Notes under the pieces: generated by a model
What the model was told of the DNA's origin: nothing
Database searches by the model: none
Seen by the model: only the letters and a program-made list of their open reading frames with translations
Translations under genes and position numbers: made by a program
Assembly (NCBI GenBank): GCA_951406725.2
Contig: OX597820.1
Coordinates: 53,630,001 to 53,694,000 of the forward strand
DNA: 64,000 nt
Direction: 5' to 3'
Origin: Octopus vulgaris
Taxonomy: Eukaryota
In this document: in pieces, positions 3,180-61,259 of the stretch
Position numbering within the stretch: position 1 is the stretch's first letter
Layout: the number at the start of each line of letters is the position of its first letter

Positions 3180-4691
3180 CACCTTGGTCACCTTGACCGA
3201 CCAGTCCGTCAGGCGTCCATTTGACACCGCTGGTCACAGCACGCTGTCCACTCCTCTCTGGATCGCGCCTTTCTCATCCACGTGATCCCAATCCTGAAAT
3301 CGCAACTCCACCGTCGTAGAGGTCTTCCGGGTGGTCTTTTCCGCTCACGCGGGTACCACTCGACAATTGCTTGCGCCCACCGATTATCGGTGAGCCGGGC
3401 GACGTCTCCAGCCCATCTATACTTGCTGCGTGTATACTCTGCGATGACATCTCTCACGCCGGACTTCTTTCTGATGATCTTGTTACTTATGTGCTCTCTC
3501 AACGAGATACAAAGCATTGACCTTTCCATGGCTCTTTGAGCCGTTACTAGTCTTTGCTCTTCTCTCTTTGTGGTAGCCCATGTTTCACTACTATATAACA
3601 TTGCAGGCAGAACTGCACTGTAAATGAGGTTGGCGCGGGCGGTCCTGTCCAACCTTCCCTTGAGCACATCCCTTATGCCTTTGAACGCCTTCCATCCGGC
3701 CCTTACTCTCCGTGAGATCTCCTTTTTGATATCCCGGCACATATTTACTTCCTGTCCCAGGTAGACACATTCCCTCACCTCCTCTATTTCATCACTGCCG
3801 ATCACCATTCGACCTGTTGGTACATTGTCTGACCGCATGTACTTTGTTTTCATGCGGTTCATCTTGAGACCTGCTGCAGAACTTTTGATGTCGAGCTCTG
3901 TCAGCATGGTCTGAAGCTGATCCATGTTTTCAGCGATGACTACGATGTCGTCAGCGAAGCGGAGGTGAGTGAGGAGCTCGCCGTTGATGTTGATACCACC
4001 TTGCCAGTCGATGCCTCTGATGATCTGTTCGAGACATGCAGTGAAAAGTTTTGGGGAGATTGTATCTCCTTGCTTCACTCCTTTCTCGACCGGCACTCGT
4101 ATGGGTGATGAAAATAAAGCTATGTCGGTGGTGCATCCGGAATTTGCCTCTCTGAGTAGCTGCACATATTGCGCTTCGATTCCTTGCCTCTGCAGCGAGT
4201 CCAGCACTGCGTTGGTTTCAACGCTATCGAAGGCCTTCTCATAATCTATAAACGCAACGCAAAGAGGCAGCTTGTACTTATTTGCTCGCTCAAGCAGTTG
4301 CGTTAGAGTAAATATATGGTCCATTGTGCTGTAGTTCTTCCGGAAGCCTGCTTGTTCCCTCGGTTGTTGTTCGTCGAGACGACGTGACAACCTGTTCAGA
4401 ATTATCTTCGTGAACAGCTTGTACACGTGAGACAGCAGGCATATGGGTCGGTAGTTCTCTAGATCTTCTCTGTCGTCCTTATTATACAGAAGAGGAAAAA
4501 TATGAAGAGGACTATTGAAGATCACCTTGAATATTCCATTCTTAGCAGTGATTCGTCAGCAACTAAAGAAAGACTTTGAGGCATACCGGATGGAGAAGCT
4601 CTTGAAAGCCGCAGAGGAAAAGAAGAGCCTCAAGAAATGCAAGAGGGACATGGTACTATATAGATCGGAGGTGACGGCCCTGAAAAATACA
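3180..4691 (-). mobile_element. RTE-clade non-LTR retrotransposon, 5'-truncated with an inverted 5' segment
   Basis: RT ORF on the minus strand followed by a short repeat tail (CAAGGTGAC-CAAGGTGA). Segment 4485-4690 encodes RTE linker-like peptide on the + strand. 11-bp TSD AAGCACTATAT at 3169-3179 and 4692-4702. Confidence 0.93.
3209..4487 (-). CDS. Reverse transcriptase (RTE-type, N-terminally truncated, frame open)
   Basis: ORF 3209..4525 contains NYRPICLLS, EQAGFR, FIDYEKAFDSV, KGVKQGDTISPKLF, LRFADDIV, YLGQ, Y-S-ETW and GRPLRRW, the canonical non-LTR RT motifs of RTE elements. Residues upstream of about 4487 are read-through into the inverted segment. Confidence 0.92.
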
Positions 4692-21136: not shown

Positions 21137-21918
21137 AAGGCGGCGAGCTGGCAGAAACGTTAGCACGCCGGGCGAAATGCTTAGCGGTATTTCGTCTGCG
21201 TTACGTTGTGAGTTCAAATTCCGCCGAGGTCGACTTTGCCTTTCATCCTTTCGGGGTCGATAAATTAAGTACCAGTTACGCACTGGGGTCGATATAATCG
21301 ACTTAATACCTATGTCTGTCCTTGTTTGTCCCCTCTGTATTTAGCCCCTTGTGGGTAATAAAGAAATAGGTATTTCGTCTGCGTTACGTTGTGAGTTCAA
21401 ATTCCGCCGAGGTCGACTTCGCCTTTCATCCTTTCGAGGTCGATAAATTAAGTACCAGTTACGCACTGGGGTCGATGTAATCGACTTAATACCTATGTCT
21501 GTCCTTGTTTGTCGGCTCTGTGTTTAGCCCCTTGTGGGTAATAAAGAAATAGGTATTTCGTCTGCGTTACGTTGTGAGTTCAAATTCCGCCGAGGTCGAC
21601 TTTGCCTTTCATCCTTTCGGGGTCGATAAATTAAGTACCAGTTACGCACTGGGGTCGATGTAATCGACTTAATACCTATGTCTGTCCTTGTTTGTCCCCT
21701 CTGTGTTTAGCCTCTTGTGGGTAGTAAAGAAATAGGTATTTCGTCTGCAGCTACGTTCTGATTTCAAATTCCACCGAGCTCGACTTTGCCTTACATCCTT
21801 TCGGGGTCGATAAATTCAGTATCAGTTACGCACTGGGGTCAATATAATCGACTTAATCCATTTGTCTATCCTCGTTTGTCCCCTCTATGTTTAGCCCTTT
21901 GTGGGCAATAAAGAAATA
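21137..21918 (+). mobile_element. SINE family B tetramer (one head plus four tandem 183-bp units)
   Basis: Head AAGGCGGCGAGCTGGCAGAAACGTTAGC. Units start at GGTATTTCG at 21186, 21369, 21552 and 21735. B-box GAGTTCAAATTCC. Central GCCTTTCATCCTTTCGGGGTCGATAAATTAAGTACC is Deu/Nin-domain-like (inference). Confidence 0.92.
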
Positions 21919-22352
21919 AGAATCGTTAAAATGCCGTGAAATATGCTTAACGGTAGTTTCTTCGACTTTATGTTATGAGTTCAAACTGCCGCCGGGATTA
22001 CTTTTGTCTTTCATCCTTTTGGGGTCAGTAAAATAAGTACCAATTGAGCACTGAAGTTCAATGTAATGGTCTAACCCCTTCCTCAGAATTGCTGGTTTTC
22101 TGCCAAGCTATGAAAGCAAGACATATATATTTTGAAAACCACGTGGGGATATTATTAAATATGTTGGTTTCAAATTTAGGCACAAGGCTAGCAATTTTGG
22201 GTGAGTGTTTAGGCGATTACTTCGAGCCCGGTTTGAAATTGGTACTCATTGTATTGACTCCGAAGGGATGAAAGGCAAAGTGAACCTCGTCGGAATTTGA
22301 ACTCAGAACCTAAGGACATAAATGCCGCTATGCATTTTGCCTGGTGTGCTAA
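21919..22352. mobile_element. Two old family B (B2-tail) SINE copies, tail to tail
   Basis: The + copy at 21919-22120 and the - copy at 22165-22352 both carry diverged GAGTTCAAA and TTTCATCC motifs. Confidence 0.65.
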
Positions 22353-34333: not shown

Positions 34334-34731
34334 GCGTAGGAGTGACTGTGTGGTAAGTAGCTTGCTTACCAACCACATAGTTCCTGGTTCAATCCCACTG
34401 CATAGAACCTTGGGCAAGTGTCTTCTACTATAGCCTCGGGCCGACCAAAGACACGTGAGTGGATTTGGTAGACGGAAACTGAAAGAAGCCCATCGTATAT
34501 ACGTATGTATATATGTGCGTGTGTATGTCTGTGTTTGTCCGCCCCCCCCCCCCGCAACATCGCTTGACAACCGATGCTGGTATGTTTACGTCCCCGTAAC
34601 TTAGCGGTTCGGCAAAAGTGACCTCTAGAATAAATACTAGGCTTACAAAAATAAATCCTGGGGTCGATTTTCTCGACTAAAGGCGGTGCTCCATCATGGC
34701 CACAGTCAAATGACTGAAACAAGTAAAAGAA
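34334..34731 (+). mobile_element. SINE family A (full length)
   Basis: Head, B-box GGTTCAATCCC and tail as in 360-798; followed by (AAT)n. Confidence 0.9.
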
Positions 34732-34756
34732 TAATAATAATAATAATAATAGTAAT

Positions 34757-34920
34757 GGTTTCAAATTTTGGCACAACGCCAGCAATTTGGGGAAGTAGAT
34801 AAGTCGATTATATCAACTCCAGTGTCCAACTGGTACTTATTTTATCGATCCCCGAAGGATAAAAGGCAAAATCGACCTCGAATGATAATAATGATGATGA
34901 TGATGATGATGATGATAAAG

Positions 34921-34951
<31 letters not shown>

Positions 34952-35215
34952 TAATAATAATAATAATAATAACTAGCTGGACCCGTGAAAAATTCACGGA
35001 AAACATAAAGAATGTAAGCATCTGTAAACAGTCAACTGGTGCCATGAGAACTGTTTTGTATATTATGACTGTCTGTCTTTACGTTCTGAGTTCAAATTCT
35101 GCCGAGTTCGACTTTGCCTTTCGTCCTTTCGCGGTCGATAAATTAAGTACCAGTTGTGTACTGGGGTCGATCTAATCAACTGTCCCCCTCCCCACAACAA
35201 TTTCAGGCCTAGAAA
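34757..35215. mobile_element. Two family B (B2-tail) SINE fragments separated by (GAT)/(AAT) microsatellite
   Basis: Minus fragment at 34757-34880; plus fragment at 35068-35215 (GAGTTCAAATTCTGCCGAG...GCCTTTCGTCCTTTCG). Confidence 0.75.
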
Positions 35216-35271
35216 GTACATTGTGACAGTTACAGAATATAGAAAGTAATGTAACAACAATGACTATATAA

Positions 35272-35759
35272 AGCATTAATAAATCTCCGAACGAGATATG
35301 AACAGTAACCGCTCGACAACGTAAAGTGTACTAGCCATCTGAATGTGGCTAGCCACTGGGTATGGGGTGTTACTGACGCTTTTAGCCCCAGGAGATCGAC
35401 GTCTCCAGCTGGCCTTAGACACAATTTCAGTGCCCTTGTGTTATTTGCAAAGGGAGGTCATCCTCTCTCGAAAACCAAAGTGATACATACGGACTATAGT
35501 TTCAAGGTTATTTGCAAAGGTCTCCTTAATGAAAACCGGTGTTTACCATACGTTGACGAGAGGCAAAAACCTTGAAACTATAGTCCGTATGTATCACTTA
35601 GGTTTTTCGAGGGAGGATGACTTCCCTTTGCAAATAACACAAGGGCACTGAAATTGTGTCTAAGGCCAGCTGGAGACGTCGATCTCCTGGGGCTTAAAGC
35701 GTCAGTAACACCCCACCCCCAGTGGCTAGCCACATTCAGATGGCTAGTACACTTTACGT
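35272..35759. mobile_element. Penelope-type inverted pLTR insertion: ~197-bp inverted repeat, hammerhead and 15-bp TSD
   Basis: 35319-35515 pairs with 35563-35759 (fewer than 10 differences) across a 47-nt spacer. TSD ACAATGACTATATAA at 35257-35271 and 35760-35774. Confidence 0.88.
35547..35591 (+). ncRNA. Minimal type I hammerhead ribozyme (PLE-type)
   Basis: CATACG-TTGACGA-GAGG CAAAAA CCTT-GAAA-CTATAG-TC-CGTATG gives a 6-bp stem I, a core with one C3U deviation, a 4-bp stem II, palindromic ACTATAGT stem III and a GUC cleavage triplet ending at 35585. Confidence 0.75.
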
Positions 35760-35904
35760 ACAATGACTATATAATCCAACCAAAATATCTCAGTTTCACA
35801 AACGTAAACGGAATTAGTATTTAACCTTAAAATATATCGTACATATTCAAAGAACCTTCTTGGTTTAGTGGTACGGAACGTTGTTCTGTTATTCTTTTAT
35901 TATT

Positions 35905-36147
35905 TTACTTGTTTCAGTCATTTGACGGTGGTCATGCTGGAGCACTACCCTTTAGTTGAAGAAATTGACCCCTGGACTTATTCCCTGTAAGCCTGGTGCT
36001 TATTCTATCAGTCTCTTCTGCTGAACAGCTAAATTACAGGGACACAACCGCACCAACATCAGTTGTCATGCAATGGTGGTGGTGGGACAAACACAGACTC
36101 AAACACATACATACATACATACATACATACATACATACATACATACA

Positions 36148-40367: not shown

Positions 40368-42630
40368 GAGAGCTGCGGCCATGCTGGGGTAGCACCGTTA
40401 GCTCTCCTGCTCTTTCGCTACTTGAAAACTCCTCTGATATGTGGCGTTTGGTGAGTGGGAGAGATCGGTGTTGTTGCCCTCATCTCTGTTTCCTGCCGCG
40501 CGGTAGGTTCATCCGGAATTCTTGACCGTAGAAGATACAGTTGTGTTTTGAATACACCTATATCCACACCATGTAGGTCTTTCAGGCTTTTTAGAGTATA
40601 TTGAAGAGCTGTGGGTTCTTGAAACCCAAGCTGTTGCAGTATCTGCTCCTGTATCCTGTTGGCAATGCTGAGATATTTGGCACAACACAGTGGCGTCCCG
40701 TTCTGTTGTTTGTGAAATTCTCAATGTCAAAGTTTTCTACAAATCCTTCTAAGATTTTCCAGATATATATCATTCCATATCTTTCCAGCTTTCGTCCTTG
40801 GGAGTAGAGTCTTAACTTTTGCAGCCTCAACCAATAGCTGACGTATCGCATTGAGAAGAACTTTTTATGTAGCTTCGCAGGATTGCTTTGAGTTACACTG
40901 TTCATTTTGCACTGTGGAGTGACTTTAGTTGGGAACAGTAGCCTAAAAGGCTGAGGACGAATGTCCTGTAGAGGAGCATCATGGTTTCTTGTTCTCTCGT
41001 TCTGAAAGGCCAGCTGCCCGCATTTTATTGCCAACGGCAATTCCTAGGTCACGCAGTGATTTTGATACTGGGATTAGAATCCTTCCTGGGTTAGTATATC
41101 CCAGCGAGCTGGCAGAGTAGTTAGCACGCTGGACGAAATGCTTAGCGGTATTTCGTCTGCCGCTACGTTCTGAGTTCAGATTCCGCCGAGGTCGACTTTG
41201 CCCTTCATCCTTTCGGGGTCGATTAAATAAGTACCAGTTATATACTGGGGTCGATATAATCGACTTAATCAGTTTGTCTGTCCTTGTTTGTCCTCTCTGT
41301 GTTTAGCCCCTTGTGAGTAGTAAAGAAATAGGTATTTCGGCCGTCGTTTCGTTCTGAGTTCAAATTCCGCCGAGGTCGACTTTGCCTTTTATCCTTTTGG
41401 GGTCGATAAATTAATTACCGGTAAAATTCTGGTGTCGATGTAATCCACTAGTCCCTTCCCCCAAACCTTCGGGGCTTGTGCCCATAATAGAAAGGATATC
41501 CCGTCTACATCTCATTCAGCAACGTGTGTTGGCATGACAGTTGCTGGAATTTTCTATCATTAAATTGCATATTATTGTCCTCTGCCTAATTGTATATTGC
41601 GTCCAATTCCGGTTGAAAGAGCGCAACATCTCCAAGGTTCTGTATCCTCTGAGAGACTTTTGCATCGTCTGCATAGCTAGCAAGAGTGACTATCTAAACG
41701 GCTGAGGACATGTCTGAGAGGGTCAATATGAATAGCAGTGGCACAAATACGGTGCCCTTTGCGTCGCCAAGTTTTCTATGTTTACGCAACTTGTGGCCGA
41801 ATTTATCAAAGCCTTTTGTAAAATCGAGATATATCATGGCCACGTTTCGGTTGTTGAACAGCTGCTTTAACATCCAATTGTAGTGCTGTAAAAACTGCGT
41901 CAGATAGCTGAGAAGGACTGCTGGGAATCCATCAGGGCTTGTAGCTGATATTGCATCTACTTCATCTGATATTGCATCTACCTACTTCTTTGATGTAGAT
42001 GCTACCAATTATTACTGCCTCCCTTTTTACATCTGTTGTGGTAACGAACAGTAGGGGTGAAAGCACTACTCATTGGGGCACACGTGAGGGAAGCTTTTTC
42101 TGGAAGACTGGCCTAACCCTGCAATGCTCGGAGCAGCTGTTTTGACATACTTAATGAACGCTTAAGGATTTGATTTTTTTATAAACCACGCTATTTTATC
42201 TTCTCAATCTTTTATATGAGAGCGTTTCAGATTTTTATCAATCTCCAGCGGTGTTGTTTTCCGGAAGGATTTTTGCTACAGTTGAGTTCTCTGTTTAGGC
42301 TGTTTACAATCTTTGTACGCCGTCTCATTAGAATTTCCCTGGGAATTCTGTTCTTATGTACAGTGACTTTTGTTCTGGGACAAATTTGTAGCACATAGTT
42401 TACATTACGGACATGAAGCCTTTGAGTTTCATGGCGATGTCGGATGTGGAGAGACATTGAGGTCAATTCTATTTGATGATCTCTTTCTCAATCAATTTCC
42501 AGTCTGTTTTATGGAAGTTCTTCTCACAGGCTGCATGTCTACAAATTCCTTTGTTCGATATACGGTCAGTTCTCTTATATTGGGATCAGGGACTAGCGTT
42601 GGTATCACTTTCACATTATGGATGAGTTCC
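40368..42630 (-). mobile_element. Decayed CR1-like LINE (RT and 3' end), interrupted by a SINE
   Basis: Minus strand encodes IYLDFTKGFDK (about 41805-41835), SYADDAKVS (about 41655-41682), LRDLG (about 41045) and SYW.RLQKLRLYS...ERY..IYIWKILEG (ORF 40591..41040), with multiple frameshifts. 3' tail GGTGCTACCCCAGCATGGCCGCAGC. Confidence 0.85.
41103..41495 (+). mobile_element. SINE family B chimeric dimer (B1 unit + B2 unit) inside the CR1-like LINE
   Basis: Junction AAAGAAATA|GGTATTTCG at 41331. The second unit ends with the B2 tail. Candidate TSD ATATCCC at 41096-41102 and 41496-41502. Confidence 0.88.
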
Positions 42631-43222
42631 ATATTCTTTTCTACTCTAGGCACAAGGCCCGAAATTTTTGGGAAGGGGCCAGTCGATTAGATCATCCCCA
42701 GTACGCAACTGGTACTTAATTTATAGACCCCGAAAGGATGAAAGGCGAAGTCGACCTCGACGGAATTTGAACTCAGAACGTAGCGGCAAACGAAATACCT
42801 ATATCTATTTCTTTACTACCCACAAGGGGCTAAACACAGAGAGGACAAACAAGGACAGACAAACGGATTAAGTCGATTATATCGACCCCAGTGCGTAACT
42901 GGTACGTATTTAATCGACCCCGAAAGGCTGAAAGGCAAAGTCGACCTCGGCGGAATTTGAACTCAGAACATAGCGGCAGACGAAATACCTATTTCTTTAT
43001 TACCCACAAGGGGCTAAACATAGAGGGGACAAACAAGGACATACATAGGTATTAAGTCGATTACATTGACCCCAGTGCGTTACTGGTACTTAATTTATCG
43101 ACCCCGAAAGGATGAAAGGCAAAGTCGACCTCGGCGTAATTTGAACTCAGAACGTAGCGGCAGACGAAATACCGCTGAGCAATTCGCCCGGCGTGCTAAC
43201 GTTTCTGCCAGCTCGCCACCTT
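42631..43222 (-). mobile_element. SINE family B chimeric trimer (B1-B1-B2)
   Basis: Head at 43222, junctions at about 42990 and 42800. The terminal unit has the B2 tail (CCCCTTCCCAAAAATTTCGGGCCTTGTGCCTAGAGTAGAAAAG). Confidence 0.9.
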
Positions 43223-60249: not shown

Positions 60250-61215
60250 ACATTTCAATCTAAGAGAGAATTTCATATAAATGATTTAACACAAATGTGA
60301 CTGCTTAAAGGAATTTTCCTTCTGCTTTTGTCTTGGATCTATTGGTGATGGGTCACCATTCTGTTGTGTAAGGATCTGCCAGTCTGACCAATGTAATTAT
60401 GTTGGCAACCATTATATGTGATTACGTAGATCAGGTTTCCCGCGTTGCAGTTGAGATTTGACTTGACTTTGAAGGTTTGGCCATCTTTAAATTGAAATTC
60501 TGGCTCCTCAACTAAGTAACGGCAAGTGCTGAGTTCGTTCTCCCACATTTTGTGACTGTCATGTTGGGGGTTTTATTTGTGTGTATTTGTTCCAGTGAGA
60601 ATGAGTTTTAGTGTTGGGCTGCCTTTTGCTTTTGTTGATTTGTTGTTTTTCTAAGATTTTTCTAATTTTTTAATCTGCAAATAACAAGGGGAGGTTTTCA
60701 TGGATGTGATCGGAAATTTTGATGTCCCTGGGATTGAAATTTGACACGAATGGTGAGACATTTGTCATTTTGTTTGCTTTCCTAAGTTGTTTATTCCGTT
60801 GATGATTATAGCAGGAGGGAAGGCTCTTTGGATAAGTGTGTCATTCAATTCTTCTAGTCTTTGTTTGCGTTTGGATGGTTCTGATACTATGGTACAAATT
60901 CGTTTTGTCAGGTTTAAGGGAATGTTAAGTTTCGGGTGTTTCGGGTGACATGATGTGAAAAAGAAGGTACTGTTTGAGGCCACTGGTTTTGTAGAATATG
61001 CCTGTTCCTATTTTCCAATTTTGGTTTTTGATTAGGATATTCAGAAAAGCAAGTTCTTTGGGGTTAAACTCCATTGCGAAATGGATGTTATTGCTGGGGT
61101 TGCTTATCATGTTTTTGAATTCAGTTAACTCGTCAATATTTTCCTGCCATAAAATAAAGCAATCGTCCAGGTATCTTTTCCAATTGTTTCTGAGTTGGGT
61201 ATGGAACGTGTCACC
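60250..61215 (-). mobile_element. Penelope-like element, decayed RT C-terminus and GIY-YIG endonuclease
   Basis: Minus strand encodes WKRYLDDCF (about 61157-61183), I.F.ME...ELAFLNI, IFYK...KQYLLF, SCHPKHPKLNIP..L..RICTIVS and C...NLIYVIT..GC...YIGQTGRSL..RM..H, with frameshifts. Flanked by (CA)/(TG) microsatellites. Confidence 0.9.
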
Positions 61216-61259
61216 AAATATATATATACATATACATGTTTATATATATGTGTGTGTGT

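What the first reader, a model, noticed from the sequence alone, without database searches (positions are those of the whole stretch)
35257..35774. 488-bp inverted-pLTR insertion with a 15-bp TSD whose inversion breakpoint falls inside the hammerhead
Seen: ~197-bp arms and a clean TSD (ACAATGACTATATAA). A near-canonical minimal hammerhead (35547-35591) straddles the spacer and right arm, while the left arm restarts in the stem II loop and extends 47 bp further. Knowledge: tail-out inverted pLTR structures are characteristic of Penelope integration. Inference: this is the clearest mechanistic example in the window, tying the palindromes to retrotransposition (long TSD) rather than to MITEs, and suggesting ribozyme structure influences where RT stops or switches template.
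Basis: partly seen in the sequence, partly recalled or inferred. Interest (0 to 1): 0.75.

Follow-up and report, generated by a model that had tools for sequence, protein, structure and literature searches.

The report
Penelope-pasted hammerhead retrozyme, double-primed insertion
This is a real 488-base mirror-image insertion of a small non-coding jumping repeat that carries a hammerhead ribozyme motif, a kind known from many animals; its sister copies almost always pair two different fixed ends, which likely records a Penelope-type enzyme copying RNA from both sides of one DNA break, and its break inside the ribozyme is mostly incidental.

Summary
Observation confirmed: 488-bp tail-out insertion, exact 15-bp TSD, empty site seen in public runs, type I hammerhead at 35547-35591, 47-nt extra on the left arm. 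It is one copy of a 353-nt non-coding hammerhead repeat (non-LTR retrozyme; 446 exact 24-mer hits) in a 2.8-Gb animal genome. Outer ends fall at two fixed sites 47 nt apart (A, B), the Penelope 'tail' signature. Of 70 inverted copies with two standard ends, 69 are A+B, 1 A+A, 0 B+B; arms share subfamily variants; unique-site TSDs are 6-15 bp (mode 12). This rules out a MITE and fits priming from both target nicks. The ribozyme-breakpoint idea is weak: 16 of 128 inner ends lie in the hammerhead (16.0 expected if uniform); a 2-fold excess covers a 45-nt zone that is not ribozyme-specific and is bounded by a likely snRNA-type transcription start, which a site-specific LINE also targets. No autonomous partner found in 50 Penelope loci; cleavage and circles untested. 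The scan already reported this pattern, and the LINE, on other DNA of this genome. Known kind; modest mechanistic value.

The parts
35257..35271 (.). Left target-site duplication (15 bp; last 2 nt also match the element end)
   Evidence: (D7), empty-site join
35272..35509 (-). Left (B) arm: inverted partial unit, monomer positions ~m336 to m220 (m1 = first base after the cleavage site); outer end at site B
35272..35318 (-). 47-nt 'tail' between end sites A (m174) and B (m221)
   Evidence: tail concept from PMC8557442 and PMC11167929
35486..35509 (-). 3' half of a hammerhead (loop II edge, stem II 3' strand, GAAA, palindrome, GUC, stem I 3' strand); lacks the core and cannot fold alone
   Evidence: sequence
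35508..35509 (.). Inversion junction; 2-nt overlap shared by both arms
   Evidence: junction vs family sequence
35508..35759 (+). Right (A) arm: partial unit m275 to m173, running through the hammerhead cleavage site; outer end at site A
35529..35532 (+). Position of the family's likely transcription start / LINE target site (m296), altered by a 1-nt loss here; the upstream ATCAGT motif (m239) is not included in this copy
   Evidence: start site inferred, not mapped
35547..35591 (+). Complete type I hammerhead motif, U3-G8 core variant, palindromic helix III, predicted cleavage after 35585
   Evidence: activity untested
35760..35774 (.). Right target-site duplication

Best explanation
This is one insertion of a 353-nt non-coding hammerhead repeat (a non-LTR retrozyme) whose inverted copies pair two different fixed ends, and it was likely written in by a Penelope-like RT-endonuclease acting in trans that primed reverse transcription from both nicks of one staggered cut. 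Shown: two end sites 47 nt apart; one arm ends at A and the other at B; arms overlap in sequence and come from the same subfamily; TSDs about 12 bp in AT-rich or (TA)n targets; arms often run through the cleavage site; inner ends are spread over the whole unit. Inferred: a dimeric enzyme on one uncleaved multimeric (or circular) RNA, or two sister RNAs, starts one cDNA at A and one at B; both stop at loosely determined points and are joined head to head, often at short overlaps. Stops are about twice as frequent in the first ~45 nt after a likely snRNA-type transcription start (m296), a zone that contains the 5' half of the hammerhead; the left arm of this copy ends at the edge of that zone. 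This copy lacks the promoter-like motif and has one complete hammerhead, so it is probably inactive.
For: Family and unit. End rule: 69 A+B, 1 A+A, 0 B+B of 70; 27 of 27 in the sample chosen without regard to ends, no tail-in copy in 149 loci. Arms of one insertion differ 3.2% vs 7.3% from arms at other loci (51 pairs, p=7e-10; common variants shared 267, unshared 93). TSD 6-15, mode 12 in 20 non-microsatellite sites; 36 of 56 in TA repeats (two of four samples were selected by patterns that favour TA). 40 of 64 simple A+B copies have an arm through the cleavage site; stops near it are below expectation (6 vs 12.0). Stops in m293-337: 40 vs 19.2; 34 of 89 arms vs 21 of 110 before and 8 of 55 after (p=0.004, 0.003). 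ATCAGT lies 57-61 nt before the start in 11 of 12 U2 genes and 57-62 nt before m296 in 28 of 30 LINE-flanking repeats. Hammerhead stems covary over 25 diverged copies (8 of 14 pairs changed on both sides). Penelope ORFs with RT and GIY-YIG are abundant, many 781-codon frames. A purified Penelope protein nicks and extends both strands, starts at two internal RNA sites that bound the tail, and is predicted to be a dimer (PMC11167929).
Against: No Penelope element with a homologous terminal repeat in 50 GIY-YIG loci of 6136 candidates; Penelope fragments beside 5 family loci were seen only as neighbours, with no match of their ends to the unit. In vitro, PMC11167929 saw no difference in start site between strands, which does not by itself predict the A+B rule. 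65 of 149 loci are single-arm and only 4 of 65 show a short opposite arm (control 2 of 65), so double priming is not obligatory or not always kept. 14 of 84 tail-out copies have a non-standard end. Shared variants could reflect gene conversion between arms. B arms do not pile up where they would meet the A start (9 vs 7.0). The m293-337 excess is significant for A arms only (B: p=0.32, 0.24), the zone was chosen after seeing the data, and the null assumes a constant stop rate. An unaligned matrix from U2 upstream DNA did not pick the motif (46 and 140 of 300 shuffles scored as high). Start site, cleavage and circles are untested.
Confidence: 0.75

Rival explanations
1. The hammerhead fold stalls the RT or triggers template switching, so inversion points concentrate in the ribozyme.
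For: 21 vs 10.6 stops in m316-337 (p=0.003); 5 of 10 arms long enough to reach the motif a second time stop there; this copy's left arm ends at loop II.
Against: 16 of 128 inner ends in the whole motif vs 16.0 uniform; 185 of 206 ends lie outside m316-337; 3' half of the motif is depleted (6 vs 12.0); same excess just upstream (m293-315: 19 vs 8.7); second sample alone p=0.12; best 22-nt hotspot starts at m213. Hammerhead mutants did not change Penelope insertion products in vitro (PMC11167929).
Confidence: 0.15
2. Fold-back (self-priming): one cDNA is made, hairpins and is copied back to give the inverted arm, as proposed for Penelope in PMC3846280.
For: Arms share subfamily variants. The single A+A copy (L138) has 158 of 158 identical arm bases and its junction lies in an internal inverted repeat, as fold-back predicts.
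Against: Here the arm that reaches further 5' (right, A) lacks the 47-nt tail that the other arm has, so neither arm can be a copy of the other; A reaches further in 24 and B in 13 of 37 copies; some copies have non-overlapping arms (L063, L132).
Confidence: 0.08
3. The template is a monomeric RNA circle copied by rolling-circle RT (variant of the best explanation).
For: Arms pass the cleavage site and reach up to 3 units; stops cluster where an arm would return to site B (m213-242: 22 vs 9.0); circles are shown for other animal retrozymes (PMC7229834).
Against: Tandem units inside one arm differ at several common family variants in L029 (4), L030 (9) and L088 (5), which fits linear read-through transcripts of mixed arrays or template jumps; stops near the likely start site fit linear RNA; the U3-G8 core (93 of 105 copies) may be slow (own knowledge).
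Confidence: 0.3
4. A foldback DNA transposon or MITE.
For: Long terminal inverted repeats, no ORF, TA-rich targets.
Against: Ends are asymmetric in 69 of 70; interiors differ between copies; TSD 6-15 bp; 65 of 149 loci have one arm only; tandem arrays occur.
Confidence: 0.01

Closest known systems
Metazoan non-LTR retrozymes (PMC7229834, passages; bioRxiv 10.64898/2026.07.22.740005, parts 1-3 of 5)
   Same: Non-coding 150-450-bp unit (353 here; mussel 350-390), one type I hammerhead per unit, tandem and dispersed copies, GC <50%, TSD longer than 4 bp, proposed dependence on Penelope-like elements.
   Different: No homologous Penelope pLTR found here; U3-G8 core; expression, cleavage and circles untested. 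The passages read do not describe inverted A+B insertions or a start site.
EN+ Penelope-like element insertions with inverted pLTR and tail (PMC3846280 and PMC8557442, passages; PMC11167929, parts 1-2 of 4)
   Same: Tail-out inverted structure, tail at one end only, 8-10-bp-class TSDs, AT-rich/(TA)n targets, two internal RT start sites bounding the tail, hammerhead upstream of them.
   Different: No ORF; tail 47 nt rather than 30-40; TSD mode 12; unit is a full tandem repeat with a canonical rather than minimal hammerhead.
L1 twin priming (own knowledge; search listing only)
   Same: Both target nicks prime cDNA; products join head to head.
   Different: In L1 the second primer lands at variable internal sites and the segments do not overlap; here both starts are fixed and the arms overlap.
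Newt satellite 2 (snRNA-type promoter; seen only as a cited statement in PMC2220036)
   Same: Tandem hammerhead repeat with an internal snRNA-type promoter; here a motif shared with U2 upstream DNA at the same distance.
   Different: Promoter activity is not tested here.

Membership tests
Non-LTR retrozyme | Short non-coding unit in tandem and dispersed copies | tested here: met
   353-nt unit, arms up to 1108 bp, 446 exact hits
Non-LTR retrozyme | Type I hammerhead in each unit with conserved fold and palindromic helix III | tested here: met
   ACTATAGT in 96 of 105 copies; covariation in all three helices across 25 copies
Non-LTR retrozyme | TSD longer than 4 bp | tested here: met
   6-15 bp in 20 unique sites; empty site
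Non-LTR retrozyme | Self-cleavage of the RNA | not testable with these tools
   U3-G8 core and G-U closing pair of stem II in most copies; needs an assay
Non-LTR retrozyme | Expression as monomeric linear and circular RNA | tested here: inconclusive
   Only contigs of runs guessed to be RNA were available
EN+ Penelope-like insertion footprint | Tail-out inverted copy at the 5' end with a tail at one end | tested here: met
   84 of 149 loci tail-out, none tail-in; 69 of 70 A+B
EN+ Penelope-like insertion footprint | AT-rich/microsatellite target preference | tested here: met
   36 of 56 in TA repeats, rest AT-rich (partly biased by selection patterns)
pLTR of an autonomous Penelope-like element | Sequence continuous with, or homologous to the end of, an RT + GIY-YIG ORF | tested here: inconclusive
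   No match in 50 of 6136 candidate loci; tblastn of 3 PLE proteins on family loci found only neighbouring fragments
MITE / foldback DNA transposon | Fixed symmetric termini | tested here: not met
   1 of 70 symmetric
MITE / foldback DNA transposon | Constant short TSD | tested here: not met
   6-15 bp

The most novel reading that the evidence does not exclude
Each Penelope RT dimer copies a single RNA twice, one subunit obligately starting at site A and the other at site B on opposite strands of a ~12-bp staggered cut; the retrozyme RNA is a capped, snRNA-promoter-driven read-through transcript whose 5' end (m296) sets where copying runs off, and that same start site is parasitised by a sequence-specific LINE.
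Probability: 0.4. Interest if true: 0.62.

Novelty: new member of a known kind. Interest (0 to 1): 0.36.

Why it matters
How Penelope-like elements make inverted repeats and one-sided tails is stated to be open (PMC8557442, PMC11167929), and what moves animal retrozymes is inferred mainly from co-occurrence and homology. A short non-coding family with hundreds of young copies gives a quantitative footprint (A+B in 69 of 70, overlapping same-subfamily arms, read-through of the cleavage site) and a compact substrate for the existing in vitro assay. The single insertion is ordinary, its break in the ribozyme is largely incidental, and the scan has noted the same footprint in sister families of this genome.

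Tried and rejected
Rfam scan: no hit. Folding 35530-35615 alone: z -0.84, not informative; the hammerhead monomer fold scores -4.7 vs -10.0 kcal/mol for the minimum, the helix III self-duplex -8.6. Autonomous partner: GIY-YIG search, 50 loci read of 150 scored and 6136 candidates; several Neptune/Nematis-type families with their own palindromic hammerheads, none homologous to the unit; two loci (L188, L194) hold a related retrozyme as a neighbour beside TA-rich DNA. The apparent ORF-bearing 'long form' (L087+L120) proved to be an inserted LINE. No RNA holder listed on record; contigs of four guessed-RNA runs cover the unit and join its end to its start, which tandem DNA also gives: no evidence either way. 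Idea that all single-arm copies hide a short opposite arm: 4 of 65 vs control 2 of 65, rejected. Idea that B arms stop on meeting the A start: 9 vs 7.0, not supported. Exact-microhomology count failed: 43 of 62 junctions gave negative values, likely from subfamily mismatches, so only BLAST overlaps (mode 1 nt) are quoted. U2-upstream matrix without alignment did not find the motif. Literature searches showed no paper that counts the A+B rule or describes a LINE targeting hammerhead repeats; most subscription papers and Repbase are not searched, and no supplements were read (those of PMC11167929, PMC7229834 and the bioRxiv preprint may bear on this).

Full report
OBSERVATION. The insertion is real. 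The 15-mer at 35257-35271 recurs exactly at 35760-35774, the arms align over 195 columns at 95.9% and the left arm has 47 extra bases. The window holds no other copy and no other hit to my hammerhead descriptor. Contigs that skip exactly 503 bases and keep one 15-mer occur in 4 of 4 laid runs; because the flank is repeated these may be paralogues of the host repeat. The junction has a 2-nt overlap at 35508-35509.

THE FAMILY. The window lies in a 2.8-Gb, 227-contig genome; the right arm has 3191 candidate matches and one 24-mer has 446 exact hits. Tandem copies define a 353-nt non-coding unit with one hammerhead. I number it from the base after the cleavage site (m1). I read 156 loci in four samples: best BLAST hits, the first listed exact 24-mer hits on contigs 1-3, copies ending at site B and at site A. 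Seven were dropped: three overlapping fetches, two segmental duplicates, one without a match, one half of a LINE-split copy; one cluster per locus was scored, leaving 149.

ENDS. Outer ends fall at m174 (A) or m221 (B). 84 of 149 loci are tail-out inversions and none is tail-in. Of the 84, 69 are A+B, 1 is A+A, none B+B, and 14 have at least one non-standard end (short hairpins, deletions, LINE insertions among those inspected). In the sample chosen without regard to ends the count is 27 of 27. The finding is A on the right, B on the left; the 47 extra bases are the A-B interval. PMC11167929 (main text read) shows for a lizard Penelope protein that both target strands are nicked and extended, that RT starts at two internal sites, and that the interval between them is the genomic 'tail'. 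PMC8557442 and PMC3846280 (passages) describe the inverted copy and the tail at one end. In 56 of 64 simple A+B copies that could be anchored, 36 sit in TA repeats and 20 have TSDs of 6-15 bp, mode 12. A MITE or foldback element is excluded.

ARMS. Arms of one insertion differ by 3.2%, against 7.3% to arms elsewhere (51 pairs). Common variants are mostly shared (267 vs 93) and rare ones mostly not (16 vs 206), so both arms derive from one source lineage and then aged separately; gene conversion is not excluded. Fold-back copying cannot make this insertion, as the arm that reaches further 5' lacks the tail. The one A+A copy has identical arms (158 of 158) and looks like a true fold-back. Single-arm copies (65) rarely show a short opposite arm (4, control 2).

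BREAKPOINTS AND THE RIBOZYME. In 64 simple A+B copies 16 of 128 inner ends lie in the 44-nt hammerhead; uniform expectation 16.0. A stop-rate analysis of 206 of 213 arms (7 below the entry length) gives 21 vs 10.6 in m316-337, 6 vs 12.0 around the cleavage site, and its best 22-nt window at m213 (1 of 300 simulations). The second sample alone gives 8 vs 4.8 (p=0.12). The excess extends upstream of the motif: m293-299 8 vs 2.4 (three of these eight are ambiguous junctions), m300-315 11 vs 6.3, m293-337 40 vs 19.2; against neighbouring 45-nt stretches it is significant for A arms, not B arms. These zones were chosen after seeing data and the null is a constant rate. So stops are spread widely, with weak hotspots that are not specific to the ribozyme. 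40 of 64 copies have an arm through the cleavage site: the template was uncleaved or ligated RNA. Units inside three long arms differ at several common variants, which favours linear mixed multimers at least sometimes; the m213-242 cluster would fit one turn round a circle.

WHAT BOUNDS THE ZONE. A LINE (ORF1 with zf-CCHC, ORF2 with APE-type endonuclease and RT, broken by stops in the copy read) inserts at m296. Of its 30 best 3' ends, 26 precede a related retrozyme (72-96% to this family), 2 a different hammerhead-like repeat and 2 a second LINE; of 30 best 5' ends, 28 follow retrozyme sequence and 2 another LINE end. Earlier notes of this scan proposed that this site is an snRNA-type transcription start; I tested it in part: ATCAGT lies 57-61 nt upstream in 11 of 12 U2 genes and 57-62 nt upstream of m296 in 28 of 30 flanks, and occurs once in the unit; a cruder matrix test failed. 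PMC2220036 cites an snRNA-type promoter for newt satellite 2. Nearness to an RNA 5' end explains the m293-337 excess at least as well as the ribozyme fold does; this is inference. The label Tx1-like rests on structure, the target habit described in PMC4494074 and earlier notes, not on a tree.

THE HAMMERHEAD. U3 is a family trait (93 of 105), not decay of this copy. Over 25 diverged copies 92.8% of cells pair and 8 of 14 pairs change on both sides, including the helix III palindrome (relatedness inflates such counts), and C3-G8, U3-G8 and U3-A8 cores all occur. This fits a selected motif that works as a dimer (PMC4209133). Activity is untested.

DRIVER. Penelope ORFs with RT and GIY-YIG domains are abundant and carry the Cys motif given for Neptune/Nematis in PMC8557442, but none of 50 loci has an end homologous to the unit. 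Mobilisation in trans is inferred from the footprint.

MECHANISM. Shown: two fixed ends, their A+B pairing, overlapping same-lineage arms, ~12-bp TSDs, read-through of the cleavage site, spread of inner ends. Inferred (0.75): a Penelope RT-endonuclease, probably dimeric, cuts AT-rich DNA with a ~12-nt stagger, primes one cDNA at A and one at B on multimeric or circular retrozyme RNA, and the two truncated cDNAs are joined head to head. One RNA copied twice versus two sister RNAs is unresolved.

VERDICT. A new member of a known kind: a non-LTR retrozyme with the Penelope insertion footprint. The scan has reported the two-start footprint and the targeting LINE on other DNA of this genome. Interest 0.36.

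Noticed in passing
L087:1945-3201 with L120:1-4098; L207-L266: A LINE family (APE endonuclease, RT, CCHC ORF1) inserts at one site just 5' of the hammerhead in many diverged retrozyme subfamilies, sometimes in tandem (30 of 30 best 3' ends, 30 of 30 best 5' ends); a second subfamily uses the same site (L108, L145). Earlier notes of the scan report it too.
   Followed up: partly
L272:1420-1500: One of 12 U2 genes has a 3' end like that of this LINE directly before its first base, in place of the usual upstream DNA.
   Followed up: no
L138:1501-1879: The only A+A inversion; arms 158 of 158 identical, junction in the unit's internal inverted repeat: a likely true fold-back product.
   Followed up: partly
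L161-L186, L188, L201-L206: Abundant Penelope-like families with GIY-YIG; many 781-codon open frames; their 3' ends carry hammerhead-like motifs with U3-A8 or C3-G8 cores and short palindromes.
   Followed up: partly
L211:1386-1500, L228:1734-1848: A different hammerhead-like repeat with no BLAST match to this family is hit by the same LINE at the same kind of site.
   Followed up: no
L093, L064, L150, L188, L194: Retrozyme subfamilies about 70% identical to this one keep the same two end sites and different helix III palindromes.
   Followed up: partly
window 60291-61218 (-): Decayed Penelope-like RT/endonuclease fragment, 31-36% identical to the loci above; no link to the finding shown.
   Followed up: no
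window ~3210-4555 (-): 448-codon open frame with LINE-type RT motifs (identification from recalled motifs).
   Followed up: no
window 41104-43216, 21160-22352, 34495-36130: Other inverted repeat pairs (76-88% identical); no similarity to the retrozyme and no hammerhead hit, so this insertion does not explain them.
   Followed up: no
L039:2538-6997; L034:2946-5180: Retrozyme copies multiplied together with their flanks as 1.4-1.6-kb tandem duplications.
   Followed up: no
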